Shown here piece by piece: positions 2,378-51,145 of a DNA stretch of 64,000 nucleotides (positions within the stretch are counted from its first letter, which is position 1; every line of letters starts with the position of its first letter). The notes under the pieces are model-generated. The model did not search any database. It was not told the origin of the DNA and worked only from the letters and a program-made list of their open reading frames with translations. The position numbers and the translations under genes were made by a program. The DNA lies in contig CP066691.1 of NCBI GenBank assembly GCA_016432485.1, forward strand, positions 77,466 to 141,465. The letters run 5' to 3'. The DNA is from Candidatus Niyogibacteria bacterium. GTDB lineage: Bacteria > Patescibacteriota > Minisyncoccia > HO2-45-28.

Positions 2378-4642
2378 ATGGAACTATCAGACAACGAAAA
2401 AAGAGATATCGTGAAATATTTGGAAGCGGGAAAACCGCTTCCGGAAAAGTATCGTTTTTTGCTTTTTGATGATGATAGAGAAGTTGAGTTACTTTGGAAT
2501 GGTAAGACAAATGAGGTAACGAATGTTGTCTTACCTTTTCAAGTTATTGAGCAAATAGACGAGCCGAGGAGCGACGCAAAATTTGGCAATCAAAATTCTC
2601 TTTTTGACACCTCGGGACGACAAATAACCGGATGGACGAATAAATTGATTTGGGGAGACAATAAATTGATTCTCTCATCTCTTAAAAATGGACCGCTTCG
2701 CAAAGAAATAGAAGCGCAGGGCGGTTTGAAATTGATTTATATTGACCCGCCGTTTGATGTTGGGGCGGACTTTTCTATGGATATAAAAATTGGTGATGGT
2801 GAGGATGAAGAAAGTTTTACAAAAAAACCGTCAGTGATAGAAGAAATTGCCTATCGCGACACTTGGGGCAAAGGTGCGGATAGTTTTATTGCGATGATTT
2901 ATGAGCGATTGAAACTCATGCACGATTTGCTTGCCGCAGACGGAAGTATTTATGTGCATTGTGACTGGAGAGTGAATAGCTATATGAGGTTAGTTTTAGA
3001 TGAGATTTTTGGTAAGGATAACTTTAGAAATGAAATTGTTTGGAAAAGAACATACTCAACAAAAGCACAGAGTGTTGGTTATGGTAAAACGCATGAGCTT
3101 ATTTTGTTTTACGCAAAAAGTGAGACTACTAAATTAAAGCAACTTTACCAAAAACCAGCTGATGATTATGTAGATAAATATTTTAATAAAACAGATGAGA
3201 ATGGCAAAAAGTACCAATCTTTGAGTTTGACTCAGCAAGGACAGGGTCCCGCTAGATTTTTTGGGGACAGACTAATTGAACCACCCAATGGGATGCATTG
3301 GATTTGGGGGCAAGACCGAATAACAAAAGCTTTTCAGGAAGGTAGAATAGTTTTTACAAAAAACAATTTTCCGAGACTTAAGAAATATCTTGAAGAATGG
3401 AATGAACAAGGTCGTCCGGTTGATGGACTTTGGGTTGATGATGAAGTTGGACCATTAAACTCCTGGCACGGGGAATCGCTGGATTACCCTACACAAAAAC
3501 CGGAGTCAATGCTTGGGCGTATAATTCAATCCTCTTCAAATGAAGGCGATCTTGTTGCTGATTTCTTCTGCGGTTCGGGGACAACGCTTGCGGTTGCTGA
3601 AAAACTCGGCAGAAAATGGATTGGCTCTGACTTGGGGAAATTTGGCATACATACATCACGAAAGAGAATGATTGGCGTACAGCGAGAATTGAAAAAGGAA
3701 AGCAAAAATTTCAGGGCTTTTGAAATCTTAAATGTTGGTAGATACGAAAGAGAAAATTTCCTCGCGACAAATAACGACTTGCGAGCGGAAGAGAAATCAA
3801 AACAAGCCGATAGAAAAGAAAAAGAATTTGTAAAACTCATTCTCTCTGCGTACAAAGCGGAGCCGGTGGAATCTTTTGTAAATGTTATCGGCAAGAAAAG
3901 AGATCGACTTGTGGCGGTGGGACCCATCGATACTCCGGTTTCCTCAAAACTGGTGCAGGACATTGTAAACGAGTGTATAGAAAAAGGAATAACTAAAATT
4001 GATGTGCTTGGTTTCGATTATGAAATGGGGCTTGATTTTTCCCAGTATAAAGATCAGGGCATTGATATTGCTTTCAGAATAATTCCGAGAGAAGTTTTTG
4101 ACAGAAAAGCGGTAGAAAAGGGTCAAGTGAAGTTTTATGATGTGGCGTTTATTGAAGCGAAGCCGATTATCAAAGGGAGGGGAAGCGAAAAAGAAATTTC
4201 TATCGAACTTACCGACTTTTCCGTTTTCTACAATCAAGATGATTCCGGTGAAATAGCCGAGGCGCTTCGGCCCGGTGGTTCTAAGGTTGTAGTGGAAGAT
4301 GGACAAGTGGTGAAAATCACTAAAGACAAGAAAACTGAAGAAATTTCAAAAGAAGTTTTGACTAAAAAATGGAGCGACTGGATTGATTATTGGGCGGTGG
4401 ATTTTGATTTTGCAAGCAGAAAAGAAATCATCAAAATAATTGAGGATGGTGAAGAAAAAGAAGTTTGGACTGGCGACTATATTTTCGACAACGAATGGCA
4501 GAGTTTCCGCACGAAAAAGAACAGAAATCTTGACCTCGTCACTCCTCCCAAGGTGGCTACAAAAGGCAAGCATAAAATAGCCGTAAAGGTCGTGGATATT
4601 TTCGGAAATGACACGACAAAGGTAATAGAAGTAAATATATGA
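2378..4642 (+). CDS. mod: Type III-like restriction-modification methyltransferase (Mod; beta-class N6-adenine/N4-cytosine MTase)
   Basis: Motif IV LIYIDPPFDVGADF comes before motif I DFFCGSGTT, and FRNEIVWKR is present. This order is the beta-class arrangement used by Type III Mod. Start taken at MELSDNEKRD (ATG 2378) after the stop of the upstream ORF. Confidence 0.8.
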   Translation: MELSDNEKRDIVKYLEAGKPLPEKYRFLLFDDDREVELLWNGKTNEVTNVVLPFQVIEQIDEPRSDAKFGNQNSLFDTSGRQITGWTNKLIWGDNKLILSSLKNGPLRKEIEAQGGLKLIYIDPPFDVGADFSMDIKIGDGEDEESFTKKPSVIEEIAYRDTWGKGADSFIAMIYERLKLMHDLLAADGSIYVHCDWRVNSYMRLVLDEIFGKDNFRNEIVWKRTYSTKAQSVGYGKTHELILFYAKSETTKLKQLYQKPADDYVDKYFNKTDENGKKYQSLSLTQQGQGPARFFGDRLIEPPNGMHWIWGQDRITKAFQEGRIVFTKNNFPRLKKYLEEWNEQGRPVDGLWVDDEVGPLNSWHGESLDYPTQKPESMLGRIIQSSSNEGDLVADFFCGSGTTLAVAEKLGRKWIGSDLGKFGIHTSRKRMIGVQRELKKESKNFRAFEILNVGRYERENFLATNNDLRAEEKSKQADRKEKEFVKLILSAYKAEPVESFVNVIGKKRDRLVAVGPIDTPVSSKLVQDIVNECIEKGITKIDVLGFDYEMGLDFSQYKDQGIDIAFRIIPREVFDRKAVEKGQVKFYDVAFIEAKPIIKGRGSEKEISIELTDFSVFYNQDDSGEIAEALRPGGSKVVVEDGQVVKITKDKKTEEISKEVLTKKWSDWIDYWAVDFDFASRKEIIKIIEDGEEKEVWTGDYIFDNEWQSFRTKKNRNLDLVTPPKVATKGKHKIAVKVVDIFGNDTTKVIEVNI

Positions 4643-6295: not shown

Positions 6296-8989
6296 ATGGC
6301 ACTACATAAAGACTTTCCAAAAAACCCATACGCGATACTTGACCCGAATATTCGGTGGTTTCCTGCTGACGAAGATTTGCGGGAAAAAGGAGCTATTCAA
6401 AAACTTTTACCTCCTCTTGTCGCGGGTTTGCGGGAAAAAGTAAAAGAATGGCGAGATAAAAATTACGAGGGGGCAAGTAATACTTCTAAATCACTTTTGA
6501 ACTGGTGGTTCAAGGAGGAACATATTTTATATGACCAACACGGAGTATCTTCTCATTTCAAATACTATTTCGCGCAAAGAGAAGCGCTGGAAACAGTCGT
6601 ATGGCTTTATGAGGTGGCGAAAGTAAAAGATAAATACGACCTCATTCGTTACAACTCTACCGGCGTATTAAGTCCGCAAATGTTTACTGAAGAGTGGCTT
6701 CGCTTTGTGATAAAAATGGCGACTGGTGCGGGTAAGACCAAAGTAATGAGTCTAGTTGTCGCATGGGCGTATTTTCATAAAAAGTATGAGGAAGGTTCAA
6801 ATTTGGCAAAGAACTTTCTTTTAATAACGCCGAATGTCATTGTTTTTGAAAGAATAAAGAATGATTTTGAAGGATTGAAGATATTTTTTAGCGATCCTGT
6901 TTTGCCGGATAACGGCTATCACGGACAAAACTGGCAGGATGATTTTCAGATGACTCTGCATTTACAGGATGATTTGCGCAATGTTTCTGACACTGGAAAT
7001 ATATTTTTGACTAACATCCACAGAGTTTTTGAGGGTGATGTGCGCGAAGCGAGTGCAGAAGATGAGGACACTTCTCGATACTTCTTAGGCGATAAACCAG
7101 TCACAAAAACAAGCGACTCTACTGTGGATTTGGGGATGATAGTAAGAGATATCGACGAGCTTATTGTAATCAATGATGAAGCTCACCATTTGCACGATGA
7201 TAAATCAGCTTGGGTTAAATCAATTACCGACATAGACAATCGGCTTAAACAGAAAGGCGCGGGGCTATCTTTACAGCTTGACTTTACGGCTACACCAAAA
7301 AAGAACGATGGCTCCATTTTTGTGCAAACAATTTCCGACTATCCGCTTGTTGAGGCAATTCACCAAAGAGTTGTTAAAAATCCGGTTGTGCCGGACGCGG
7401 CAAGCCGAGGAAAACTGAAAGAAAATCAAAACACACTATTTAGCGAGAGATACCGAGATTATATAAATCTTGGTATTGAAGAATGGAAAAAAACATACGA
7501 AGTATTAAAACCGATGGGTAAAAAATCCATTCTTTTTATTATGACAGACGATACAAGGAATTGTGATGAGGTGGCGGAGTATATTGAAACAAGTTTTAAA
7601 GAGTTGAAAGGGGCAGTTTTGACTATACACACAAACAAGAGCGGAGAAATTTCTGAAAGTGTGTCCGGTAAAAGTAAAGAGGAATTGGATGTGCTTCGCA
7701 AACAAGCGAATGAAATTGATAGTTGGGAAAGCCCGTTCAAAGTAATTATTTCCGTAATGATGTTGAAAGAGGGTTGGGATGTAAAAAATGTAACGACAAT
7801 CGTCGGGCTACGACCTTTCGCAGCCGATTCAAAAATTCTGCCCGAACAAACTCTCGGACGAGGACTCCGTAGGATGTTTTTTGGCAGAGATGATGTTGAG
7901 GAATATGTGAGTGTTGTCGGAACTCCCGCTTTTATGGACTTTGTTGAATCAATCAAGGGCGAGGGCGTTATTCTTGAAAAGAAAGCGATGGGAACGGGAG
8001 CCAAGCCGATAGCTCCGATGGTTATTGAGGTTGATAAGGATAATCCGAAAAAGGACATTGAGAAGCTTGATATTGAGATTCCGGTGATGTCCCCTAGAAT
8101 TCAGAGGGAGTATAAAAACCTAGCCGAGCTGGATGTTTCCAAATTTGGGAATAAAAAGGTCAAAGTAAAAACATTCTCCGAAGAAGAAAAACGAGAAATC
8201 GTGTTTAAGGATGTTGTTGATGAAAAAATCCATCACACAACGATACTTTCTGGCGACATTGAACCTGATTATCAAAGCGTTATCGGATTTTTTGCGCAGG
8301 CAATAATGCGAGAACTACGGCTTTTTGGTTGCTACGATATTTTATTCGGCAAGGTAAGAGAGTTTGTGCAAAATAATATGTTTGACAGTCCCGTGAATTT
8401 ATCAGACCTCAATACTCTGCGAAATTTATCCGAGGTGGAGTATATACGGCTTATAAAAGATTCTTTCAAGAAAGCCATTAACGATCTTACAGTCGAAGAC
8501 AAAGGAGACACAGAGATAAAGAACTACATCAAAATTAGCGAAGCACGTCCTTTTGTCGTTAATGATAAATCGTATTTAATACCCAAAAAGTCTGTTTTCA
8601 ATAAGATTGTTGGCGATAGCGATTTTGAGCTAGTATTTTCTGATTTTCTCGAAAATTGTGATGATGCGATTTCTTTCGCAAAGAATTTTCAAAATAAAGA
8701 AGCGAGCGCGCTTAGAATTGAGTATAAAAATTCGGAAGGATTTATTGCTACCTACTACCCCGATTTCTTTGTTAAGAAAGATGAAAAAACGGTTTATATT
8801 ATTGAAACGAAAGGACGAGAAGAAGATGACGACAAGCTAAAATTTGAAAGACTGCAAAAGTGGTGTGAGGATGTAAATGATCGACAAAATCGGGTCGTCT
8901 ATAAAGCACTTTATATCAAACAAGAAGAATGGAAAAAAGATAAATTCAAGAATTTTGATGAGGTTGTTAGGGTGTTTGATTTAAAATAA
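6296..8989 (+). CDS. res: Type III restriction enzyme Res subunit (SF2 DEAH helicase fused to a C-terminal PD-(D/E)XK nuclease)
   Basis: Walker A MATGAGKTKV, DEAH box VINDEAHHL, motif VI QTLGRGLRR, and a C-terminal nuclease motif YYPDFFVKKDEKTVYIIETKGRE. Confidence 0.85.
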   Translation: MALHKDFPKNPYAILDPNIRWFPADEDLREKGAIQKLLPPLVAGLREKVKEWRDKNYEGASNTSKSLLNWWFKEEHILYDQHGVSSHFKYYFAQREALETVVWLYEVAKVKDKYDLIRYNSTGVLSPQMFTEEWLRFVIKMATGAGKTKVMSLVVAWAYFHKKYEEGSNLAKNFLLITPNVIVFERIKNDFEGLKIFFSDPVLPDNGYHGQNWQDDFQMTLHLQDDLRNVSDTGNIFLTNIHRVFEGDVREASAEDEDTSRYFLGDKPVTKTSDSTVDLGMIVRDIDELIVINDEAHHLHDDKSAWVKSITDIDNRLKQKGAGLSLQLDFTATPKKNDGSIFVQTISDYPLVEAIHQRVVKNPVVPDAASRGKLKENQNTLFSERYRDYINLGIEEWKKTYEVLKPMGKKSILFIMTDDTRNCDEVAEYIETSFKELKGAVLTIHTNKSGEISESVSGKSKEELDVLRKQANEIDSWESPFKVIISVMMLKEGWDVKNVTTIVGLRPFAADSKILPEQTLGRGLRRMFFGRDDVEEYVSVVGTPAFMDFVESIKGEGVILEKKAMGTGAKPIAPMVIEVDKDNPKKDIEKLDIEIPVMSPRIQREYKNLAELDVSKFGNKKVKVKTFSEEEKREIVFKDVVDEKIHHTTILSGDIEPDYQSVIGFFAQAIMRELRLFGCYDILFGKVREFVQNNMFDSPVNLSDLNTLRNLSEVEYIRLIKDSFKKAINDLTVEDKGDTEIKNYIKISEARPFVVNDKSYLIPKKSVFNKIVGDSDFELVFSDFLENCDDAISFAKNFQNKEASALRIEYKNSEGFIATYYPDFFVKKDEKTVYIIETKGREEDDDKLKFERLQKWCEDVNDRQNRVVYKALYIKQEEWKKDKFKNFDEVVRVFDLK

Positions 8990-22124: not shown

Positions 22125-24554
22125 TTATATTTTATGCCCGCCGAATACGGCGCGGAGCGTTGAAAGAATTTTTCCGGTAAATGACGGGCTCTTTTTTGAG
22201 CGTACACGGAAAAGATAAGACCTCTTGATAATTGGCGCGGGAACGCCGAGTTCTTTGGCGGTTTTTACCGTCCATTCTCCTTCTCCTGTTTGAGCCACCA
22301 CGCCAGACGCTTTTTTTAAGTCCTCTCCATACTTTTTGAATCCTTCCTCCAGCCACCCCGTAAGCCGCGAGGTAATAATGCTGTTTTGGTTGTACACACT
22401 CGCGACATCTTTAAGATGAAACTCAAACGGCGCCTTTTTTAATACTGAAAATCCTTCGGCCAGCGCCTGCATCATTCCGTACTCAATGCCGTTATGAATC
22501 ATTTTTGTAAAATGCCCGGCCCCAATTTTTCCCATATATCCGGAGGTCGTATCCGACATGGCGTCAAAAATCGGTTTGATTTTTTCATATATTTTTTTAT
22601 TTCCTCCCGCCATAATAGCAAATTTCCCAAGCTGAATGGAAGTCGGCCCGCCCGATACGCCAACATCAAGAAAATGAATTCCTTTTGCTCCCAATTTTAT
22701 TCCTCGGCGAACAGAGTCCTTATAGAAAGAGTTTCCTCCGTCAATTATTATATCCCCTTTCTTGAGTATCCGCGCGAGGCCTTCTTTTCCGAAAATGATT
22801 TCGTCTACGGGCTTTCCCGCGGGCCTGCCCGCCGTAGCTTTACTTTGCCCGTCCGAAGTCTTTGACGAAGGCGGGGCGGAGGCGGGAACCATAAGCCATA
22901 TAACGCGCGGAGTGGAAAGTTTCTTAACAAATTCCGGAATAGAATACGCGCCGATAATTCCATTTTTTTCAAGTTTTTTCGTAGTATCGGGAAAGTGGTC
23001 CATGCCGACAACGCGCCATCCTTTGGCTGAAAGTCGTATCGCGAGATTAGCGCCCATTTTCCCCAAACCGATAATACCGATCTCGCTCATGCGCGTTTCC
23101 GCGTTTTTATCCCTGACGCTCTGCGTATTTTGCAAGATTGCCGGCCGAGGAGTGGTCCCGGGCTTATATTTTGCGAGCGAAACGGTATTTTTATCCCACG
23201 CGCTTTCGATCGGATCGATAAATTTCCATAGCGCCGCCACCTCCCCGGGCGCTATAAAAAATGCCCGATTGCCTTCCATGGCTGCGTTGAAAATTTTTGC
23301 GTATTCTTCCACATATTGCGCCTTTTCTTTTTTTTCGTACAAAAAGAAAGAGAAGGCGCGCCTTTCAAGGGTTTGTTCAAAACCGGGTTTTTTCATCCAA
23401 AAGTAAATAATTATTTCATCATTTGGTTCAAGCCGAAAAACTATTTTATTTGGCTCGTGCGGTCCGACCTCGCAAAGATGACAAATAGCCGGATGTTTTA
23501 GCGTGAGCACTATTTCTTTACGCGCCTCGGCCATCCGTTTCCCCGCTTCCATGAATATCGGGATTCCTTTCCATCGAGGATAGCGGAGCTCGGTTTTGAG
23601 CGCAAAATATGTATCGGTGTTTGAGGCGGGACGAACTCCTTTAATATTCTCATAACCCCGATATTGCGCGCGATAGGTATTGTTTCGGACTGTTTCGGTT
23701 GTCCAGGGTGCTAAAGTTTCTAAAATTTTTGCGCGGTTTTGCCGGATAGAGTCCGCCTCTTTATTTTTAGGATATTCCATGGCAAGTACCGCAAGCATGA
23801 TTAAAAGATGATTTTGTCCGACATCGCGCAGCGCCCCGACAGCGTCGTAAAAACTCCCGCGCTCTTCCACGCCGATTGATTCATAAAGGCGAATATCAAT
23901 TCGCTCAATCATCGTATTATCCCACGCATTTTCAAAAAGGTTATTGGAAAATCTGAAATTTTCTATTCCCTGCAATATTTCTTTAAAAAGATAGTGGTCA
24001 ATTCTGTAAATCTGTTCCTCTTTGAAATATGAGGAAAGAAGCGACTGGAGCTTCCTCGCGCTTTCGGAGTCCTTTCCAAAAGGTTTTTCAATAAGCAGGC
24101 GGCTCCAGCCAAGATTTCCTCCGCAAGGAAGGTTTAATTTTACTGAGGCGAGATTCTTAAAAATTATCTCGTAAGATGACGGAGGAACGGCAAGATAAAA
24201 TAATTTATTGGCGCAAACACCCCAAGACGATTCGGCGCCCGCTATTTTTTCAAAAAGAATCCGAAAGGATTTTTTGTCCTCAAAAGTTCCGGCATGATAT
24301 GAAAATGTTTCAAAGAAACGCGAAAAATCTCTCTCTTTTATTGCCGCCCCTCCGCGCTTTATAAGGGTTTTACGGATAAATTTTTTAAATTCTTCGCGGG
24401 AAAGATTTCTTCGCGAAAATCCCATCACGGAAAAGCGGTCCGGAAAACGGCCTTGTCGGAAAAGGTGCCATAAAGAGGGAATAATTTTTTTAGCCGCAAG
24501 ATCGCCGGTCGCGCCGAATATGGTTAATATGGTCGGCGAATTTTTAATTATCAC
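22125..24554 (-). CDS. Glucose-6-phosphate dehydrogenase fused to a short-form 6-phosphogluconate dehydrogenase-like domain (zwf-gnd fusion)
   Basis: N-terminus has FGATGDLAAKK and RIDHYLFKE (G6PD). The C-terminal ~320 aa have IGLGKMGANLAIRL and the 6PGDH NAD-binding fold. One continuous ORF of 809 aa, including a ~24-aa palindromic-element insert at 22824-22886. Confidence 0.75.
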   Translation of the reverse strand: MIIKNSPTILTIFGATGDLAAKKIIPSLWHLFRQGRFPDRFSVMGFSRRNLSREEFKKFIRKTLIKRGGAAIKERDFSRFFETFSYHAGTFEDKKSFRILFEKIAGAESSWGVCANKLFYLAVPPSSYEIIFKNLASVKLNLPCGGNLGWSRLLIEKPFGKDSESARKLQSLLSSYFKEEQIYRIDHYLFKEILQGIENFRFSNNLFENAWDNTMIERIDIRLYESIGVEERGSFYDAVGALRDVGQNHLLIMLAVLAMEYPKNKEADSIRQNRAKILETLAPWTTETVRNNTYRAQYRGYENIKGVRPASNTDTYFALKTELRYPRWKGIPIFMEAGKRMAEARKEIVLTLKHPAICHLCEVGPHEPNKIVFRLEPNDEIIIYFWMKKPGFEQTLERRAFSFFLYEKKEKAQYVEEYAKIFNAAMEGNRAFFIAPGEVAALWKFIDPIESAWDKNTVSLAKYKPGTTPRPAILQNTQSVRDKNAETRMSEIGIIGLGKMGANLAIRLSAKGWRVVGMDHFPDTTKKLEKNGIIGAYSIPEFVKKLSTPRVIWLMVPASAPPSSKTSDGQSKATAGRPAGKPVDEIIFGKEGLARILKKGDIIIDGGNSFYKDSVRRGIKLGAKGIHFLDVGVSGGPTSIQLGKFAIMAGGNKKIYEKIKPIFDAMSDTTSGYMGKIGAGHFTKMIHNGIEYGMMQALAEGFSVLKKAPFEFHLKDVASVYNQNSIITSRLTGWLEEGFKKYGEDLKKASGVVAQTGEGEWTVKTAKELGVPAPIIKRSYLFRVRSKKSPSFTGKILSTLRAVFGGHKI

Positions 24555-35296: not shown

Positions 35297-36823
35297 TTAT
35301 TCCGTACAGCAGGAAAGTTTGTTGACATCCTTTCGGAATGACTGCGCGACCCATTTGATTGATTCGGCCATAGTGGGAAAGATAAATGTATTTTCAATTA
35401 TATCATCTAATTTCATACGATGCTTGATAATGAAACTGGCAACGGAAATGATTTCATCGGCTCTGGCGCCCGCCATATGGATACCGACGACTTCCTCGGT
35501 TTTTGAATCAATTACCATTTTAATTAAGCCGTCCGCCGCTTCTAGAATATGCGCCTTTGGCACAAGTTCCAAACTCAAGGTGCGGCAGCTGCATACTAGC
35601 CCCGTTTGCTTGACGATTTGAGCGTCAGTCAGGCCGACGCTCGCCAGCGGCGGGTCGGTGAAGATGGCGTGGGGTGCCGCCCGGAAATCAACTTTGATGC
35701 CCTTATTTTCCAAAAGATTAGACGCGGCAACAAAACCCTCTCTGCCCGCGACGGTTTCCAGTTTAAGATTAACCTCTTCGCCCGACTGATCCACCACATC
35801 GCCGGCGGCAAATATGTGAGGTAGGTCTGTTTGTAGAAATTCATTGGTTGCGACTCCGCCTCTTTCGCCGACACGAACACCGATATGCTCAAGATTTAAT
35901 GATTGGGTATTGGCTCTTACTCCTGATGCAACCAGTATTTTTTCTGCCTCAATAATAATTTCTTTCTTGCCCGCCGTAGCTTTACTGCGTCCTTCCGTAG
36001 CCTTTGGCGAAGGAGGAGCGGAGGCGGGGTCGCCAACCTCGACAGTTGCTTTAATAAGATTGCCGTTATGCTCAACACCCTTGGTTTTAGCGGAAGTATA
36101 AATGGTTGTGCCCTCTTTTTCTAGTTTCTTTTTCAGAAAATCTGAAAGCTCCGGCTCTTCGCGGTCGGCTATTTTGTCCGCATACTGCAAAACCGTAACC
36201 TTCGTTCCGAAACGATTGTAAATTTGGGAAAATTCAAGACCCAACGGCCCCCCGCCCAAAATAATCATTGATTTCGGCAACTCCTTCAAACTCAAGGCCT
36301 CGATATTGGTGAGATACGCGACTTTATCCAGCCCATCAATCGGAGGAATAAAAGTGGAAGAACCGGTTGAAATCAAAAATTTTTCTCCCGTAATTTTCTC
36401 CCCGCCCGCCGTAGCTTTAGCGGAGGCGGGGCCATTTATTTCAACCGTGTGCTCGTCAATAAATTTCGCGTCTCCTTCTTTAAGAGTTACATAAACCAGA
36501 AATTTAAGAGTTCCGGCATACGCCTTTCCCTGAAGTTTGCGGATTAGCGCGTCTTTGGATTCAACGACTTTTTTAAAATCCAAATCCGGCACACTGCCGG
36601 CTACGCCGTCATACTTGCTGTAACGCGCGTTCCAATAGGATTCGGCCACAGTAAGCAATCTTTTTGACGGCATACATCCGACATTAATGCAGGTTCCGCC
36701 CAAAGGAACTTTTCCGCCCGATATCATTAAAGTTTTAATCTTCAAAGAATCCGCCTTGATGGCAGCCGCGAAACCCGCGGCTCCGCCCCCGATGATGATA
36801 AACTGATAGTCGTAATTTTTCAT
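35297..36823 (-). CDS. Mercuric reductase-like pyridine nucleotide-disulfide oxidoreductase (no NmerA domain) carrying two in-frame palindromic-element insertions
   Basis: GGTCINVGCMPSK active site and a C-terminal vicinal Cys pair …KLSCCTE, which is a MerA hallmark. Inserts PASAKATAGG (36402-36432) and ASAPPSPKATEGRSKATAGKK (35969-36029). Confidence 0.65.
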   Translation of the reverse strand: MKNYDYQFIIIGGGAAGFAAAIKADSLKIKTLMISGGKVPLGGTCINVGCMPSKRLLTVAESYWNARYSKYDGVAGSVPDLDFKKVVESKDALIRKLQGKAYAGTLKFLVYVTLKEGDAKFIDEHTVEINGPASAKATAGGEKITGEKFLISTGSSTFIPPIDGLDKVAYLTNIEALSLKELPKSMIILGGGPLGLEFSQIYNRFGTKVTVLQYADKIADREEPELSDFLKKKLEKEGTTIYTSAKTKGVEHNGNLIKATVEVGDPASAPPSPKATEGRSKATAGKKEIIIEAEKILVASGVRANTQSLNLEHIGVRVGERGGVATNEFLQTDLPHIFAAGDVVDQSGEEVNLKLETVAGREGFVAASNLLENKGIKVDFRAAPHAIFTDPPLASVGLTDAQIVKQTGLVCSCRTLSLELVPKAHILEAADGLIKMVIDSKTEEVVGIHMAGARADEIISVASFIIKHRMKLDDIIENTFIFPTMAESIKWVAQSFRKDVNKLSCCTE

Positions 36824-43880: not shown

Positions 43881-44492
43881 ATGCTGCGAATAGCTATTTT
43901 GGGAGCGACCGGCGTCGGTAAGGACACCCTTTGCCGTCTGCTTGCCAACGATCTGGCGCGATATTCTCTCGCTCGGAAAAAGCTGGTTAAAATCCGAGAA
44001 ATTCAGGAGTACTCGGTTTTGTGGACGGATAAAACCGGCGGAACAAAAGAATTTTTTGAACAATTTTGGATTTATCAGATGCAAAGGGAATGGGACCATG
44101 ATTTTGACTCGCGCTCAAACGATGACTTTTGCGCGGTTATTTTACGAGCACCCGCTCCACTGGCATACTTTTTTGCTCTCGCTTTCGCCGATATTAAAGA
44201 CGAAAAGCATCGCGAGGCCCTTGCCGACCTCTACAAAGAGGCGTTGGGCGAACTTTTGAAATACGATCTGATATTTTTCCTTCCCATTGAATTTAATGTG
44301 CCAGAGGGAGACCGTTTGCGTAAAAAAGATTTCCGTTTTAATGTTAACGCGTCAATCAGGTCATTTCTTCCCCTGCATAAAATACCTTTTATTGAAATAC
44401 GCGGCACGGAAACTGAAAGAGCCAAAAAAGTTGCAAGAGCAGTTAAAGATATGTTTAAAGCCAAAGTCGCCCAAGAGACGCAAAAATCTTAA
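43881..44492 (+). CDS. P-loop NTPase, hypothetical
   Basis: MLRIAILGATGVGKDTL Walker A. Confidence 0.4.
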   Translation: MLRIAILGATGVGKDTLCRLLANDLARYSLARKKLVKIREIQEYSVLWTDKTGGTKEFFEQFWIYQMQREWDHDFDSRSNDDFCAVILRAPAPLAYFFALAFADIKDEKHREALADLYKEALGELLKYDLIFFLPIEFNVPEGDRLRKKDFRFNVNASIRSFLPLHKIPFIEIRGTETERAKKVARAVKDMFKAKVAQETQKS

Positions 44493-44494
44493 AA

Positions 44495-44520
44495 GTCCCG
44501 CTGTTGTCGGGACTTTTGTT
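44495..44520 (+). terminator. Rho-independent terminator (agtcccg-ctgttg-tcgggact + tttgtttt)
   Basis: Seen in sequence. The stem is related to the one at 42353. Confidence 0.5.
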
Positions 44521-44551
44521 TTGAGTGAAAAAATGTATAATAAATAATTAA

Positions 44552-44664
44552 GGGCGTATAGCTCAGTGGGTCAAAAGCGTTTAAATAGCTTTTGACGGGC
44601 GATTACAATAATTTAAATATAAATTTAGGTCGCCCAGGGAGAGCGCAGTCCTGACCCCAGTACC
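44552..44664 (+). other. tRNA-like 5' fragment (GGGCGTATAGCTCAGTGGGT…GGAGAGCGCAGTCCTGACCCCAGTACC) interrupted by two AT-rich hairpins; not a complete tRNA
   Basis: tRNA-like acceptor/D-arm sequence, but no complete cloverleaf can be folded. Its 3' end, CCCCAGTACC, is complementary to GGTACGGGG at 44781-44789. Confidence 0.35.
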
Positions 44665-44673
44665 AAAAAATTT

Positions 44674-44747
44674 GCGGCTATAGCTCAGTTGGTTAGAGCG
44701 CGTCACTGATAATGACGAGGTCCTTGGTTCGAGTCCAAGTAGCCGCA
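44674..44747 (+). tRNA. tRNA-Ile (anticodon GAT)
   Basis: GCGGCTA-TA-GCTC-AGTTGGTTA-GAGC-G-CGTCA-CTGATAA-TGACG-AGGTC-CTTGG-TTCGAGT-CCAAG-TAGCCGC-A. A perfect cloverleaf. Confidence 0.9.
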
Positions 44748-44780
44748 CTAAATGTAGAGCAAATTTTTGGTACGGGGCAA

Positions 44781-44820
44781 GTAATGACGAGGCCGGAGGT
44801 TCGATCCCTCCCATGCCCAC
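44781..44820 (+). other. tRNA 3'-half-like fragment with T-arm, acceptor 3' strand and encoded CCA (…TGACGAGGCC-GGAGG-TTCGATC-CCTCC-CATGCCC-A-CCA)
   Basis: The T-arm carries compensatory changes relative to tRNA-Ile. No matching 5' half lies adjacent. Acceptor pairing with 44552-44558 is partial. Confidence 0.35.
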
Positions 44821-44828
44821 CAGAATAG

Positions 44829-44911
44829 AACTCAAAGGGTTTTGAGAGACCGAATTGTGGGCGGCGCAAAGCGCCGCCCACCAAATGGCTCTCAAAAAGC
44901 CGTTGAGTTTT
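44829..44911 (+). other. Cluster of three nested hairpins, including the 11-bp GC stem gtgggcggcgc-aaa-gcgccgcccac, directly after the tRNA region
   Basis: ctcaaagggttttgagag / gtgggcggcgcaaagcgccgcccac / ctctcaaaaagccgttgag, read directly. Confidence 0.5.
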
Positions 44912-44949
44912 ATCATGGTGTATTTATACGACCAAGCTCGAACCTATTT

Positions 44950-45420
44950 TAGCAGAAATTTCTGACACTGACGAACGCCCCGCCGCCCGCCTCCGCTAAC
45001 GCTCCGGCGGCAACCTCGCAGAAAAATATCCTCCGCAATTCTTTTTTTGCGCGCGCCCGATTTTTTCCTAAACAAGGAAGAGGATATTTTCTGCTCGGTT
45101 CCGCCCTCCAAGTATTTGGGCGGAGCGGCGGGGCTTCCATTCGCTTGGACGGCGCGGAATTCCCCCCTTGAACCCCCCTTCCGCCGCGCCCGAGCCGAAG
45201 CGAAGCCCCGTCGCCTGCTCTTTTAAGAGCAGAAGCCAGCAAAAAAGTTTTCTTCACCTTTTAGAAGAAAAAATTTATGGCGCGCGAAAATCAAAAATTG
45301 AGAAGAAAACTTTTTTGCTGGCTGGCGAGCGTCAGCGAGCGGCGGCGGGGCGAAGCGTCAGGCGTTCCGTTCAAAATAGGTTCGGATTATTTTCAGAGTA
45401 CTCCACAAGACTCCAAAATT
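44950..45420. repeat. GC-rich block containing several degenerate copies of the CCGCC…GGCGG palindromic element family
   Basis: For example, ccccgccgcccgcctccgctaacgctccggcgg (44988-45010) is approximately the reverse complement of the 36402 copy. ggagcggcggggc is repeated at 45122 and 45333. The ORFs predicted here (44949..45257, 45168..45437) look spurious. Confidence 0.5.
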
Positions 45421-45493
45421 ATCGACTTTACATTTAGAACTTTGCCGACTAGACTGGTTAATAGTTCTGAATATAGGGTCGTGGAGGGTTATT

Positions 45494-45805
45494 ATGCCTA
45501 AAGCCGATGTGGTTCTTGAAATCGATTTTGACGTTAACAGTCCGGAAAAAAGTGTAATAAGAACTAACGCCAAAAAAGAAAAACTTGGAGAGACACTTGA
45601 AGCGTGGCTGTCTTGCCAGTTTGGACTGGGTGAAGATGAGAGCGAGTTAGACAAAAAGGATATATATAAAATAAAAATCCAATTGGATTTAAGCGACGAC
45701 TCTTTCTATACCAACAGCGATACGGGGAATAAGGGACTTACTTGCGGAATTATTATATGCGTACTCGATAACTTGAGCCGGATTGAAGTTGTTGATCTTT
45801 CATAA
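45494..45805 (+). CDS. Hypothetical protein
   Basis: ORF only. Confidence 0.3.
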   Translation: MPKADVVLEIDFDVNSPEKSVIRTNAKKEKLGETLEAWLSCQFGLGEDESELDKKDIYKIKIQLDLSDDSFYTNSDTGNKGLTCGIIICVLDNLSRIEVVDLS

Positions 45806-47804: not shown

Positions 47805-47832
47805 CCGCCATAGCTTTAGCGACGGCGGAGCC
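47805..47832. repeat. Copy of the palindromic element (gtccgccatagctttagcgacggcggag) in the 16S 3' trailer
   Basis: Same CCGCC-[AG]TAGCTTTAGCG-GGCGG architecture as the in-gene copies. Confidence 0.5.
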
Positions 47833-48140: not shown

Positions 48141-49122
48141 GGTATTATGGTCTAATATCTTTTCAAATATTTAGCCATGCACCACTGGGCAAGCAGTTTT
48201 CCTGCACCCTAGCGGTTTTCGTAGGTTCGGGCTTTTTTGCCTCGAGCCCTGATTTCTTCGCGTATTTTGATAATTTTCTTAAATCCTTTGTCCGTTAAAT
48301 GCTCTTTCTGTTTTACTTTCAAAACAATTGTTTTGAATCTTTTGTAGACCTCCGCCTTTTTTGCCTGTAAAGGACATTTATCAAGAAACGGAAAAAGAAA
48401 TTCTGTTAAATCCTTGTTGTTTGTAATTTTATATTTTACATGCGGATACCATCCATACCTTTCGTATGAAAGATCATAAATTCGTCCGCACCCAATTGTG
48501 ATTAAGATTCGTTCCAATATTTCTCTGTCATCGGCCCGAACTTCTATTTCAAACTCCGGCCTTATTTCAAGGCCGCGTTTAAGAGTTTTGTGTCTGCCAA
48601 TGCTTACTGAAAACGATCCCTCACCGTCAATAAAACCCGCAACATAGTTAGGATCAAGTTTTTTCCTACGAATTCGTTCCTTCCCAAACGGCGCTTTTAA
48701 TAAGCAGTTTTTGTGGTCGTCATTTTCAGACGACTTTCGTTTGGTACTACGAACTTTGCTGACTTCTTGCGTTGTTTTTGGACGATTGCTCGTTTTCATA
48801 CCTCGAGGTTATTATACCACGAGGACAACGCAAGATCTCCCACGGTAACCCATATATCTGTGTGTATCTATCTCGATGCCACTACACGCGTTATGCATTT
48901 TTTGCGGCGGGATTCTTCCTGTACTCGAGGAATCTCCCGCATAACGCGCCACAAACTGGCATTCAAGCTAAATACTGCTAATTTCACCCTTCGCCACGGC
49001 TCCTCGCGGAGACGGGCTGTGATTTTGCTTCGTTTCTACCGCAAAGAAACGGCTGGACTTCCGAGCGCATAAAACGTTATGTGCTTCGGTCACCAGCTAG
49101 ATACACGGATCGCATGGCGACC
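48141..49122 (-). mobile_element. ~1 kb intron in 16S (E. coli position ~1390-1400) encoding a LAGLIDADG homing endonuclease; probable group I intron
   Basis: The conserved GTACAC|ACCGCCCGTC block is split by ~980 nt containing a sense-strand ORF. Confidence 0.75.
48209..48799 (-). CDS. LAGLIDADG homing endonuclease (intron-encoded)
   Basis: YVAGFIDGEGSF motif. Same strand as the rRNA. Confidence 0.8.
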   Translation of the reverse strand: MKTSNRPKTTQEVSKVRSTKRKSSENDDHKNCLLKAPFGKERIRRKKLDPNYVAGFIDGEGSFSVSIGRHKTLKRGLEIRPEFEIEVRADDREILERILITIGCGRIYDLSYERYGWYPHVKYKITNNKDLTEFLFPFLDKCPLQAKKAEVYKRFKTIVLKVKQKEHLTDKGFKKIIKIREEIRARGKKARTYENR

Positions 49123-49630
49123 CGAGTACAAGACTCGAGAACGTATTCACCGCGGCGTTCTGATCCGCGATTACTAGCGATTCCGGCTTCACGAGGTCAG
49201 GTTGCAGACCTCGATCCGAATTGGGGCCGGCTTTGATGGGATTAGCTCCGCCTTACGGCTTGGCGACCCTTTGAACCGGCCATTGTAGCACGTGTGTAGC
49301 CCAGGGCATCAGAGGGCCATGCTGACTTGGCGTCATCCCCACCTTCCTCCCCGCCCTCTAAGCTCTACTTTAAATCCTCTTTACAAACTTATTGTGTTGA
49401 AGATTTACAACGACCGACGCGGTCATTGTTAAAGCATAGAGGGCGGGGCAGTTTCGCCTGACATATATAACAGGCAATGGGGGTTGCGCTCGTTACCCCA
49501 CTGAAGGGAACAACTCAAGCCACGAGCTGACGACAGCCATGCAGCGCCTGTCCAGCCGTCCTTGTGAGAAAACCTGCCTTTCGGCAAATTGTCGTCTGGA
49601 TTTCAAGCCCTGGTGAGGTTCTTCGCTTAC

Positions 49631-49665
<35 letters not shown>

Positions 49666-49676
49666 AGTCCCCGTCT

Positions 49677-49718
<42 letters not shown>

Positions 49719-49813
49719 GAGGCTTAACGCGTTAGCTTCGACACTCAAAGGGTCGATACTTCGAATATCTAGCCTCCATCGTTTAGGGCGCGGAGTACAA
49801 GGGTATCTACATC

Positions 49814-50200
49814 ATTGTTACTTAAACCGAACTTATTAATCATCGGTTAAGGAGCGAACATTTCTGCCGCTCTCTCCGTGTTACCACGAAGATCGGACTA
49901 TATCATCCCGCCAACATCTATAAAGTTGTGGCGGGCTCGGCGTATAGTCTCTACGGGGTTACTGGAAACTTATACTTGTATTTAGGCAATATATATTTTT
50001 TAACTGCAAACCACAATTTTTTAATTATCGTATATTTGCCATAAACACACGTATAAGTTTCCAGAACTTCCCTCGGTATTTTCCGTTTTTTAAAAACGGA
50101 TTTCTACCGATATAGCCGAGTTTGCATTCCATTGTCGCCAATGGAAGGGACTAGCAGCCAACTTTAATTATATCAATAAAGTTGGATACCCATGCCAATC
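49814..50200 (-). mobile_element. ~390-nt ORF-less intervening sequence in 16S (E. coli position ~790-800); probable intron
   Basis: GGGTATCTAATCC…CGCTTTCG is interrupted. No ORF longer than 60 aa on the rRNA strand. Confidence 0.55.
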
Positions 50201-51042
50201 CTTTTCCATACCCGCGCTTTCGTGTTTCAGAGTCAGGAACGCGCCAGTAGACTGCCTTCGCCTTTGGTGTTCCCCTGGATATCAATGGATTTCACTCCTA
50301 CACCCAGAGTTCCGTCTACCTCTCGCGTCCTCCGAGTTCAATGGTATCCCCTGCATTTTCGCCGTTGGGCGGCGATATTTAACAAAAGACTCATTAAACC
50401 TCCTACACACCCTTTACGCCCAGTAAATCCGGATAACGCTTGGGCTCCTCGTATTACCGCGGCTGCTGGCACGAGGTTAGCAAGCCCTTATTCATGGGAT
50501 ACTGTCACTTGCGTTCATCTCCCATAAAAGCAGTTTACGTCCCGAAGGATTTCTTCCTGCACGCGGCGTCGCTCGATCAGGCTTTCGCCCATTGTCGAAT
50601 ATTCTCGACTGCTGCCACCCGTAGGTGTATGGCCCGTGTCGCAGTGCCATTGGTGGGGGGCGAGCTCTCACTCCCCCTAGCCGTCATAGCCTTGGTAGGC
50701 TTTTACCCTGCCAACAAGCTGATAGCCCGCAGACCTTTCCCAGAGCGTCTTACGACTTTACCCTCACGGGAACTATCGGGAATTAGCCCCGCTTTCGCGG
50801 GGTTATGCCCGTCTCTGGGGTAAGTATCTACGTATTACTACCCCGTCTGCCACTCGCCAACGCTTCGCGTTGGAAGCACGAAATCCTAAATCCGAAATAC
50901 GAAACAAACTCAAAATTACAATACTCAAATTCCAAATGTTTTTAGTTTAGAATTTCGAGTTTGGATATTGTTTCGGATTTCGATATTCGAATTTCGAATT
51001 TCCAGTGCGAAGCACTGGCTCGTACGACTTGCATGCCTTATC

Positions 51043-51145
<103 letters not shown>

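What the first reader, a model, noticed from the sequence alone, without database searches (positions are those of the whole stretch)
44950..45420. GC-rich block next to the tRNA cluster holding several decayed copies of the palindromic element; predicted ORFs here are probably artefacts
The block contains ccgcccgcctccgctaacgctccggcgg (reverse-orientation core), repeated ggagcggcggggc, and a reverse-strand reading that again gives …NSAPSKRMEAPP… In a ~35-45% GC genome this ~450-nt GC island is conspicuous. It may be a source or sink locus for the element family, or a decayed integration site adjacent to tRNAs.
Basis: seen in the sequence. Interest (0 to 1): 0.5.

Follow-up and report, generated by a model that had tools for sequence, protein, structure and literature searches.

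The report
Gene-less relic of a mobile element
The GC-rich block is not a gene. It is the empty non-coding frame of a mobile element that sits beside tRNA genes in many ultra-small (CPR) bacteria, and its two mirror-image halves are copies of a conserved, strongly folded ~220-base module absent from the RNA family library and from my literature searches.

Summary
The block is real: 53% GC against 43% for the window, with folding z-scores of -11 and -10. It is not a pile of decayed small palindromes. It is two inverted copies of one ~220-nt structured module: an A-type copy on the minus strand (44973-45190) and a diverged B-type copy on the plus strand (45148-45355), fused at a single hairpin.

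The module has a 12-13-bp hairpin with a fixed G-rich loop, followed by a four-way junction. About 80 loci from CPR genomes and metagenomes carry it. In at least 16 loci, two inverted copies flank 1.6-4.3 kb of variable cargo that usually starts with an XRE-type regulator gene. In 17 loci a large serine recombinase gene lies just outside a module, within its own perfect inverted repeats, one arm touching the 3' end of a tRNA gene where the contig reaches that far.

The window keeps every non-coding part: a tRNA-like 3' fragment, fused recombinase repeat arms (44818-44920), outer extensions and both modules. It has no recombinase, regulator or cargo. Relatives lack the block at this locus. The ORFs are artefacts. 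What the module does is unresolved.

The parts
44775..44822 (+). tRNA-like 3' fragment (acceptor stem plus T-arm, ending CCCACCA). It occupies the position that the 3' end of an intact tRNA gene has in related loci.
   Evidence: Rfam tRNA partial match, 26.1 bits, below the gathering score. Its 3' half shares TAATGACGAGG with the true tRNA-Ile at 44674-44748. In related loci the recombinase repeat arm starts in the last 5-6 nt of a tRNA.
44818..44920 (.). Palindrome made of the two inverted-repeat arms that flank the serine recombinase gene in intact relatives (arms 44818-44867 and 44871-44920). Here they are fused, with no gene between them.
   Evidence: Self reverse-complement, 78.5% over 107 nt. 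The arm at 44857-44920 matches both recombinase-flanking arms of L041 (3692-3755 and 5463-5526). Coordinates.
44921..44976 (-). Outer extension of the A-type module, with an outward-facing sigma-70-like promoter motif that is weak in this copy.
   Evidence: 92% identical to L041 as part of a 290-nt match. A promoter-like site TCGTCA-17-TAAAAT lies on the minus strand. In 29 of 73 distinct extensions the motif is TCGAAA-N17-TATAAT or similar at 10 of 12 matches, against 1% of shuffles.
44973..45190 (-). A-type module. P0 hairpin 45147-45191 with G-rich loop 45160-45178. Four-way junction: P1 45125-45134 with 44977-44986, P2 45101-45123, P3 45012-45100, P4 44985-45011.
   Evidence: Covariance model 235 bits, nhmmer 241 bits, single-sequence fold, coordinates.
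45148..45355 (+). B-type (diverged) module that shares the single P0 hairpin. P1 45205-45215 with 45341-45351, P2 45216-45231, P3 45234-45323, P4 45325-45340.
   Evidence: Covariance model 104.5 bits. It aligns with the B-type modules of L003, L029, L066 and L096 and folds to the same four-way junction. Coordinates.
45352..45384 (+). Outer extension of the B-type module. It pairs with 44939-44969 in the whole-block fold.
   Evidence: Inverted repeat I21, alignment with other B-type extensions. Similarity to the native upstream region of the 103-aa gene in relatives starts only near 45425.

Best explanation
Window 44775-45385 is the gene-less frame of an integrative mobile element family found beside tRNA genes in CPR/Patescibacteria.

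Shown. Intact members have this order: tRNA 3' end, then a large serine recombinase gene inside its own perfect inverted repeats, then a short extension with an outward sigma-70-like promoter motif, then a ~220-nt structured module. After that come an XRE-type regulator gene and 1.6-4.3 kb of variable cargo, and finally a second module in inverted orientation. The window keeps the tRNA-like 3' end, the two recombinase repeat arms fused into a palindrome, both extensions and both modules (A-type inverted, B-type direct) joined at one hairpin. The recombinase, regulator and cargo are missing.

Inferred. The genes were most likely lost by deletions between inverted repeats. The block is now probably inert, apart from possibly acting as a two-way transcription barrier between the tRNA cluster and the next gene.

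Inferred. The module acts in cis as a folded nucleic acid. Its stems co-vary while its loops stay fixed, and it is far better conserved than the adjacent recombinase gene. The promoter motif directly behind it points at the recombinase gene, or at a tRNA gene in L096. Whether the fold works as RNA, as single-stranded DNA or as an extruded cruciform is not resolved.
For: 1. Anatomy. The block is 62% self reverse-complementary over 375 nt. nhmmer and the covariance model resolve it into an A-type module on the minus strand (241 and 235 bits) and a B-type module on the plus strand (123 and 104.5 bits), with outer ends pointing outward.

2. Family. A 22-mer from the block finds 29 stretches in genome contigs, of which about 20 carry more than a 22-35-nt match (nearly all from CPR lineages), and 77 stretches in metagenome contigs, but none in viral contigs. 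At least 16 loci have a pair of modules, minus-orientation copy on the left and plus-orientation copy on the right, flanking cargo.

3. Associations. A recombinase gene lies within 700 nt outside a module's outer end in 17 loci. In the eight rec-bearing loci with a neighbouring tRNA that I examined, perfect or near-perfect repeats (46-155 nt) flank it, and one arm overlaps the last 5-6 nt of tRNA-Ser or tRNA-Glu. An XRE-type HTH gene sits just inside a module.

4. Closest intact relative. L041 is 92-93% identical to window 45143->44857. Its repeat arms, which flank a recombinase gene and end beside a tRNA-like 3' end at the contig edge (read by eye), are the two arms of the window palindrome.

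5. No genes here. tblastn finds no recombinase or HTH homologue in the window.

6. Not native to the locus. Four relatives whose 103-aa neighbour protein is 60-71% identical have no module (nhmmer, E up to 1). They carry a tRNA-Gly about 105 nt upstream of that gene instead, or about 1.1 kb upstream in L111, where an insert flanked by direct repeats intervenes.

7. The fold is under selection. On 63 distinct copies, 96.7% of cells pair (87.2% in shuffles, at most 63% with slid partners). 31 of 51 pairs show changes on both sides (16.8 in shuffles, 0 of 500 reach it). All 12 P0 pairs co-vary. At least six unrelated P0 stems carry the same G-rich loop.

8. Constraint. Where the recombinase proteins are below 70% identical (48 locus pairs, mean 48%), the adjacent modules are 85% identical in nucleotides.
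Against: No target-site duplication and no direct repeat of the tRNA end was found on the right side of the block, so integration at this exact site is inferred from architecture, not shown.

The back-to-back, cargo-less arrangement is unique among the ~106 loci retrieved, so it cannot be checked against a second example.

The left half of the junction rests on one assembly. The independent Logan contig L001 is identical but starts at 45160, in the P0 loop.

Only 64 kb of a contig of about 837 kb was searched, so a recombinase elsewhere in the genome could still act on this copy.

G-U and A-C counts in the helices are nearly balanced once one column is set aside (79 against 44 in all), so the analysis does not show that the module works as RNA.

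The covariation alignment was fitted to the model's own structure.
Confidence: 0.75

Rival explanations
1. The whole ~450-nt block is a stand-alone, highly structured non-coding RNA gene transcribed downstream of the tRNA cluster.
For: Extreme predicted stability on both strands. The helices are conserved and co-vary. It lies after a tRNA and a terminator-like hairpin. The sense strand of single modules folds 5.7 kcal/mol better on average, in 39 of 40 copies.
Against: In every other locus the two halves are separate units 1.6-4.3 kb apart. The fused form is unique and is absent from relatives at this locus. No Rfam family matches. No convincing promoter reads into the block. G-U and A-C counts show little strand bias.
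Confidence: 0.1
2. One reading: the block is an accumulation of several decayed copies of the small (~25-60 nt) palindromic element that also sits inside genes of this genome, so it is a source or sink locus for that family.
For: Helix P4 of the A-type module (44987-45010) matches the element at 36406 in 23 of 25 positions. The 24-nt degenerate pattern occurs 3 times in the window against 0.01 expected. The covariance model picks up 36406-36429 as a partial match to model positions 182-205.
Against: Only that one stretch matches. A blastn of the block against the window finds no other significant similarity. The rest of the block is accounted for by the ~220-nt module found in about 80 other loci.
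Confidence: 0.07
3. The block encodes one or more small proteins, for example the 102-aa minus-strand ORF 44949-45257.
For: 29 database 'proteins' match that ORF, with E-values down to 6e-18.
Against: Those entries read the same DNA in different frames (P0001-P0007 against P0009-P0014). ORFs are called on both strands of the same stretch. Indels are not multiples of three. There is no Pfam hit. Four overlapping ORFs compete inside the block. The conservation pattern is that of paired helices.
Confidence: 0.02
4. The fused palindrome is an assembly artefact: a collapse or fold-back chimera at inverted repeats that skipped a real cargo region.
For: The independent Logan contig breaks exactly in the P0 loop, at 45160. 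Many related contigs end inside modules.
Against: The two arms are only about 62-66% identical and belong to different subtypes (A and B), so this is not a fold-back copy. The sequence shared in inverted orientation is only the ~13-bp P0 stem, too short to mis-join at usual k-mer sizes (inference). The right half is identical in the second assembly.
Confidence: 0.04

Closest known systems
MITE-like non-autonomous elements of bacteria, such as Correia elements of Neisseria and Rickettsia palindromic elements (comparison from my own knowledge)
   Same: Short, non-coding and bounded by inverted ends. Strongly self-complementary. Related to larger, gene-carrying elements with the same ends. The ends carry outward-facing promoter-like motifs. 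Gene callers mis-call them as ORFs.
   Different: This is a single copy, not a dispersed family. No second cargo-less pair appears among ~106 loci. No target-site duplication was found. The parent element uses a serine recombinase beside tRNA genes, not a DDE transposase. The 'ends' are ~220-nt multi-helix modules with co-varying stems rather than simple terminal repeats.
tRNA-associated integrative elements and genomic islands, including those with large serine recombinases such as the tycheposons of Prochlorococcus (a preprint on novel integrative elements in Prochlorococcus, which I take from memory to be the tycheposon paper, was listed but not read; the comparison is from my own knowledge)
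   Same: The element lies at the 3' end of tRNA genes. In L066 and L109, short direct repeats of the tRNA end delimit islands of about 4-6 kb. The recombinase gene lies next to the tRNA. Cargo is variable and includes restriction-modification genes. Recombinase-less derivatives exist.
   Different: The recombinase gene is itself enclosed by 46-155-nt perfect inverted repeats and occurs in both orientations. The cargo is bracketed by inverted, structured modules. I know of no report of either feature for such islands.
Invertible DNA segments of the Hin/Gin/Cin type (from my own knowledge)
   Same: A serine recombinase lies next to a segment bounded by inverted repeats. The recombinase cassette is seen in both orientations relative to a fixed outside promoter motif (14 standard, 3 flipped).
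   Different: The known sites are ~26 bp, not 46-338 bp. Those recombinases are small, not ~500-aa large serine recombinases. No evidence of inversion within one population was available here.
Structured non-coding RNAs encoded beside mobile-element recombinase genes, such as IS110 bridge RNA and the omega RNA of IscB/TnpB (from my own knowledge)
   Same: A conserved multi-helix non-coding region lies immediately upstream of a recombinase gene and is better conserved than the protein.
   Different: No sequence or Rfam match. The enzyme class is different. The conserved promoter motif lies downstream of the module, so the module need not be part of the recombinase transcript. There is no evidence for guide-target pairing.
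Single-strand origins (ssoA type) of rolling-circle plasmids and the terminal hairpins of parvoviruses (from my own knowledge)
   Same: Folded elements of 150-300 nt with co-varying stems and fixed loops. Inverted copies would place one functional copy on each strand.
   Different: No Rep or relaxase gene was seen in the cargo examined. No sequence similarity was tested or found.

Membership tests
Module-bounded, tRNA-associated serine-recombinase elements of CPR bacteria (family defined here) | Two copies of the ~220-nt module in inverted orientation with outer ends pointing outward | tested here: met
   A-type 45190->44973 and B-type 45148-45355. Same polarity as all module pairs in other loci.
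Module-bounded, tRNA-associated serine-recombinase elements of CPR bacteria (family defined here) | Repeat arm starting in the last nucleotides (CACCA) of a tRNA 3' end, on the outer side of a module extension | tested here: met
   Palindrome 44818-44920 begins inside ...CCCACCA of the tRNA-like fragment. It is homologous to the L041 arms.
Module-bounded, tRNA-associated serine-recombinase elements of CPR bacteria (family defined here) | Large serine recombinase gene between the repeat arms | tested here: not met
   No tblastn match in the 64-kb window at E up to 1e-5. The arms are separated by 3 nt.
Module-bounded, tRNA-associated serine-recombinase elements of CPR bacteria (family defined here) | XRE-type regulator gene and cargo between the modules | tested here: not met
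   The modules share one P0 hairpin with nothing between them. No HTH match in the window.
MITE (miniature inverted-repeat transposable element) | Terminal inverted repeats and no coding capacity | tested here: met
MITE (miniature inverted-repeat transposable element) | Flanking target-site duplication | tested here: not met
   By inspection of the sequence on either side of 44939 and 45385, no direct repeat. A self-BLAST of 44540-44930 finds only the palindrome.
MITE (miniature inverted-repeat transposable element) | Many dispersed copies in the genome | tested here: not met
   One copy in the window. No other cargo-less pair in ~106 loci. The rest of the ~837-kb contig could not be read.
tRNA-integrated genomic island (as mapped by the Islander approach) | Intact tRNA gene at one end and a displaced direct-repeat fragment of it at the other end | tested here: inconclusive
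   A tRNA-like 3' fragment lies on the left, but no direct repeat lies on the right. The defining pattern is present in relatives L066 and L109.
Any Rfam 15 RNA family | Covariance-model match at or near the gathering score | tested here: not met
   Only microRNA-like hairpin noise far below threshold in the block. No match to modules in nine related loci.
Protein-coding gene | One reading frame preserved across homologues; a known domain | tested here: not met
   Frame-shifted 'homologues', anchor spacing mod 3 = 22/18/12, no Pfam hit.
Small palindromic element of this genome (copies at 36406 and 47805, longer forms at 22826 and 35968) | Core CCGCCnnAGCnTTAGCGnnGGCGG | tested here: met
   One copy, at 44987-45010, which is helix P4 of the A-type module. 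'Several copies' is not met.

The most novel reading that the evidence does not exclude
The ~220-nt module (a hairpin with an invariant G-rich loop, GGAGGGGG-UU-GGGGGGAGGAA, followed by a four-way junction) is a new class of functional folded RNA or single-stranded DNA. It would work together with the large serine recombinases of CPR mobile elements, for example by controlling recombinase expression or by taking part in synapsis or target choice at tRNA genes. Under this reading the window's fused pair is a minimal substrate that a recombinase supplied in trans could still move.
Probability: 0.2. Interest if true: 0.8.

Novelty: new variant of a known kind. Interest (0 to 1): 0.55.

Why it matters
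For this genome, three or four predicted ORFs should be removed. A conspicuous GC-rich palindrome is explained as a mobile-element scar beside a tRNA hotspot.

More broadly, following this block uncovered an element family that I found neither in Rfam 15 nor in three full-text literature searches. CPR bacteria have tiny genomes and few recognised routes of gene exchange. Here, variable cargo is bracketed by a conserved structured module and linked to a large serine recombinase in an apparently invertible cassette at tRNA genes. The cargo includes restriction-modification genes, sigma factor plus protease, surface proteins and nucleotide-metabolism genes.

The module is better conserved than the recombinase and shows clear helix covariation. 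That makes it a concrete candidate for a new cis-acting RNA or DNA structure in recombination or its control. It can be tested with existing metatranscriptomes and with in vitro recombination assays.

Tried and rejected
- **Rfam.** Gathering thresholds on the whole window, permissive thresholds on 44450-45520, and permissive scans of nine related loci gave nothing relevant.
- **Phage and viral collections.** Distant BLAST against phage records gave only chance 25-nt hits. A viral-contig scan gave zero matches.
- **Protein reading.** Rejected.
- **Exact look-up of flanking proteins.** It found only the same genome; L001 is identical.
- **Synteny through the 103-aa neighbour.** Gene order is not conserved. 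The search was still useful, because relatives have a tRNA-Gly and no module upstream of that gene.
- **Plain MAFFT plus RNAalifold on whole modules.** It failed because stem registers were misaligned. I replaced it with anchored cores, per-hairpin analysis and a covariance-model alignment.
- **Strand assignment from G-U against A-C counts.** Inconclusive: 79 against 44, mostly from one column at the P3 tip. The sense strand folds better, but that may reflect loop content.
- **tRNA-like reading of the four-way junction.** The P2 loop ...UUGGA resembles a D-loop, but B-type modules lack it, so I dropped the idea.
- **Promoter reading into the module from the regulator side.** The intergenic regions are too variable to call.
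- **ARAGORN with intron search.** It did not call the split outer tRNA.
- **Literature.** Three full-text searches found no description of these elements.

Full report
**1. What is in the sequence**

The quoted strings are present at the stated places. The minus-strand ORF 44949-45257 reads ...NSAPSKRMEAPP.... GC is 53.3% for 44950-45420 against 43.2% for the window (z = 2.4, top 1.4% of same-size windows). It peaks at 67% in 45100-45230, and AT-rich hairpin arms lie between the GC-rich stems.

The region folds far better than shuffled controls on both strands: -217 and -229 kcal/mol, z = -11.3 and -10.1. A BLAST of the block against the window shows that it is 62% self reverse-complementary over 375 nt, centred near 45167. 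Apart from itself, it shares only one 25-nt stretch (44986-45010) with the rest of the window.

That stretch belongs to a small palindrome family, CCGCCnnAGCnTTAGCGnnGGCGG, with 3 copies where 0.01 are expected. So the block is not a heap of those small elements.

**2. Context**

The window comes from a CPR bacterium. The 16S rRNA gene at 49012-51088 is 2077 nt long and carries a group I intron. One source names the neighbouring 103-aa protein as from Candidatus Niyogibacteria, and its longest contig is 836,981 nt.

To the left of the block lie a true tRNA-Ile (44674-44748), pieces of a second tRNA-Ile-like gene, and an 88-nt hairpin. To the right lie a 103-aa gene and an enoyl-CoA hydratase gene. 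No Rfam family matches the block, even at E up to 10.

**3. Finding relatives**

I searched the large protein collection with the artefactual 102-aa ORF. It returned 29 'hypothetical proteins' from CPR metagenomes. Their sequences show the same DNA read in different frames that merge into one shared stretch...RRIFFCEVAAGALAEAGGGA.

Their contigs (L002-L004) place the homologous DNA between a divergent XRE-type HTH gene and a serine recombinase gene. A 58-nt stretch is identical between the window and L003.

A 22-mer from that stretch found 29 stretches in species-representative genomes. About 20 of these share more than a 22-35-nt match with the block; nearly all are from CPR lineages, and one is labelled Bacteroidia (L011). 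The rest come mostly from unrelated phyla. The same 22-mer found 77 stretches in metagenome contigs and none in viral contigs.

**4. The repeat unit**

Iterated nhmmer and a covariance model define a module of about 220 nt. It has two parts:

- **P0:** a 12-13-bp hairpin with a G-rich loop, consensus GGAGGGGG-TT-GGGGGGAGGAA.
- **A four-way junction:** closing helix P1, a short hairpin P2, a long AT-rich hairpin P3 with a GCGCGC-containing tip, and a small hairpin P4 with symmetric purine internal loops.

The window holds an A-type copy on the minus strand (44973-45190, 235 bits) and a diverged B-type copy on the plus strand (45148-45355, 104.5 bits). The B-type copy aligns with the B-type modules of L003, L029, L066 and L096. 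The two copies share a single P0 hairpin, whose loop orientation is that of the A-type copy.

**5. The fold is under selection**

I counted pairs on 63 distinct copies aligned to the model.

| Measure | Observed | Shuffled | Slid partners |
|---|---|---|---|
| Cells forming a standard pair | 96.7% | 87.2% | at most 63% |
| Pairs changed on both sides (of 51) | 31 | 16.8 ± 1.7 (0 of 500 reach 31) | at most 15 |
| Covariation score | 0.268 | 0.109 | at most 0.075 |

All 12 P0 pairs co-vary. At least six unrelated P0 stem sequences carry the same loop. B-type modules keep the junction through compensatory changes in P2 and P3. One caveat applies: this alignment was fitted to the model's own structure.

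The module is also much better conserved than the adjacent gene. In the 48 locus pairs whose recombinases are below 70% identical (mean 48%), the modules are 85% identical in nucleotides.

The strand on which the fold acts is not settled. The sense strand folds 5.7 kcal/mol better on average, in 39 of 40 copies. However, G-U and A-C counts are 79 and 44, close to parity once one column is removed.

**6. The element around the module**

- **Pairs.** In at least 16 loci two modules flank 1.6-4.3 kb, always with outer ends pointing outward.
- **Regulator.** An XRE-type HTH gene sits just inside one module and is transcribed inward.
- **Cargo.** It is highly variable: a type IIG restriction-modification enzyme, a methyltransferase with an HNH nuclease, a sigma-70 factor with a trypsin-PDZ protease, a NosD-like beta-helix protein, a DUF2339 membrane protein, and dCMP deaminase with other nucleotide-metabolism genes.
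- **Promoter motif.** Directly outside the junction lies a short extension with an outward sigma-70-like motif. It is TCGAAA-N17-TATAAT or similar at 10 of 12 matches in 29 of 73 distinct extensions, against 1% of shuffles.
- **Recombinase.** Beyond the extension, in 17 loci, lies a large serine recombinase gene. In the eight rec-bearing loci with a neighbouring tRNA that I examined, it is enclosed by its own repeats (46-155 nt; 100% identical in seven, 98% in L003), and the far arm overlaps the last 5-6 nt of tRNA-Ser or tRNA-Glu.
- **Orientation.** The cassette follows the promoter motif's direction in 14 loci and is flipped in 3.
- **Island limits.** In L066 and L109, direct repeats of the tRNA 3' end delimit islands of about 6 and 4 kb.
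- **Promoter use in L096.** There the promoter motif sits 14 nt upstream of a tRNA-Thr gene.

**7. How the window maps onto this**

L041 is an intact relative. It is 92-93% identical to window 45143->44857, which covers the A-type module, its extension and one repeat arm. In L041 that arm and its partner flank a recombinase gene, and the far arm ends beside what looks like a tRNA 3' end at the contig edge (read by eye).

In the window the two arms are fused as the palindrome 44818-44920. It starts inside the ...CCCACCA end of the tRNA-like fragment 44775-44822. The window has no recombinase or HTH homologue.

Every non-coding part of the element is therefore present in the expected order, and every gene is missing. 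No other cargo-less pair exists among the retrieved loci. I therefore read this as a one-off deletion derivative, not a proliferating MITE.

**8. The locus in relatives**

Orthologues of the 103-aa gene (60-71% identical) in four other CPR genomes have no module (nhmmer, E up to 1). In L112-L115 a tRNA-Gly lies about 105 nt upstream of the gene. In L111 a ~900-nt insert flanked by direct repeats separates the tRNA-Gly from the gene. Similarity to the window begins only near 45425, at the gene's own promoter. The block is therefore a lineage-specific insertion at a tRNA-flank hotspot.

**9. The ORFs**

Four overlapping ORFs compete inside the block, and none has a Pfam match. Homologous 'proteins' are frame-shifted versions of one another and are called on both strands. 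The distance between two conserved anchors ranges from 94 to 103 nt (one outlier of 64), with remainders mod 3 of 22, 18 and 12. These are not genes.

**10. Mechanism: what is shown and what is inferred**

Shown: the architecture, the associations, the covariation, the conservation and the promoter motif.

Inferred:

- The element integrates at tRNA 3' ends through its serine recombinase.
- The recombinase cassette can invert relative to a fixed outside promoter.
- The module acts in cis as a folded nucleic acid. Possible roles are a structured leader or insulator in outward transcripts, or a recombination accessory site.
- The window's copy lost its genes by deletion between inverted repeats and is now inert, apart from possibly blocking transcription in both directions.

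I put 0.75 on the relic reading and about 0.2 on the module being a new functional RNA or single-stranded DNA partner of these recombinases.

**11. Comparison with known systems**

The comparisons in this section rest on my own knowledge. The block behaves like a MITE-type remnant, but it fails the multicopy and target-duplication criteria. The parent family resembles tRNA-associated islands with large serine recombinases. It differs in its structured inverted modules and in its repeat-enclosed recombinase gene found in both orientations. I found no description of either feature in Rfam or in three full-text literature searches.

I classify the finding as a new variant of a known kind.

Noticed in passing
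window 44552-44822: A second tRNA-Ile-like gene is split into pieces (44552-44570, 44637-44654, 44775-44822). It has a 66-nt insert in the D-loop. In the anticodon loop (CTGA|TAA) a second insert carries the intact tRNA-Ile(GAU) gene (44674-44748), enclosed by an ~18-20-bp stem (44655-44674 with 44760-44777). It is either a pseudogene disrupted by a tRNA-carrying insert or an unusual nested or split tRNA. ARAGORN with intron search does not call it.
   Followed up: partly
window 22826-22886, 35968-36028, 36406-36433, 47805-47832: Small GC-rich palindromic elements with core CCGCCnnAGCnTTAGCGnnGGCGG. From the surrounding sequence, the copies at 22826, 35968 and 36406 appear to lie inside coding regions, like Rickettsia palindromic elements, but I did not list the ORFs there. 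The core equals helix P4 of the A-type module.
   Followed up: partly
window 49012-51088 (minus strand): The 16S rRNA gene is 2077 nt long, with a group I intron (49874-50189, 54.5 bits) and a further ~145-nt insertion near the 5' end. No 23S rRNA gene follows it within the window.
   Followed up: no
L005, L007, L014, L020, L024, L028, L030, L032 (positions): The exact 22-mer GCCGGAGCGTTAGCGGAGGCGG also occurs in Gamma- and Alphaproteobacteria, Flavobacteriales, Actinomycetota and Bradymonadales MAGs with no further similarity to the module. My estimate of chance matches is about 0.07 for the whole collection. In the two Alphaproteobacteria MAGs (L024, L030) and the Parasphingorhabdus MAG (L020) it sits beside CCCTCTCCC...GGGAGAGGG-type repeats.
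   Followed up: partly
L021:1764-1808 and downstream: A Spirochaetia chromosome carries helix P4, the P1 3' strand and an outer extension of the second sequence type (as in L008 and L023), about 300 nt upstream of a tRNA-Val gene. This is either a partial module outside CPR or contamination.
   Followed up: no
L096:14-88, 4249-4323, 8285-8357: Three tRNA-Thr genes lie in direct orientation about 4 kb apart: two near-identical copies plus a third, 78% identical. They bracket module-bounded cargo, which looks like a tandem array of elements. The module's outward promoter motif lies 14 nt upstream of the second tRNA-Thr gene.
   Followed up: partly
L111:2786-3990: In a relative of the window's organism, a ~900-nt insert follows tRNA-Gly(GCC). 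It is bounded by direct repeats of about 90 nt that include the tRNA 3' end. This is another small integrated element at the equivalent hotspot, unrelated to the module.
   Followed up: no
L085, L038, L029, L083 (between the HTH gene and P0; sequences): A conserved ~50-nt insert...AAGGGAG...TTGCCCGCGCAnGGGAGnGGTGGGGCAAGGGCAA..., forms a hairpin-like motif in some elements only. It has no Rfam match.
   Followed up: partly
L001:1 (= window 45160): The independent Logan assembly of the same organism breaks exactly in the C-rich/G-rich loop of P0. Many metagenome contigs likewise end inside modules, so these modules are frequent assembly break points.
   Followed up: partly
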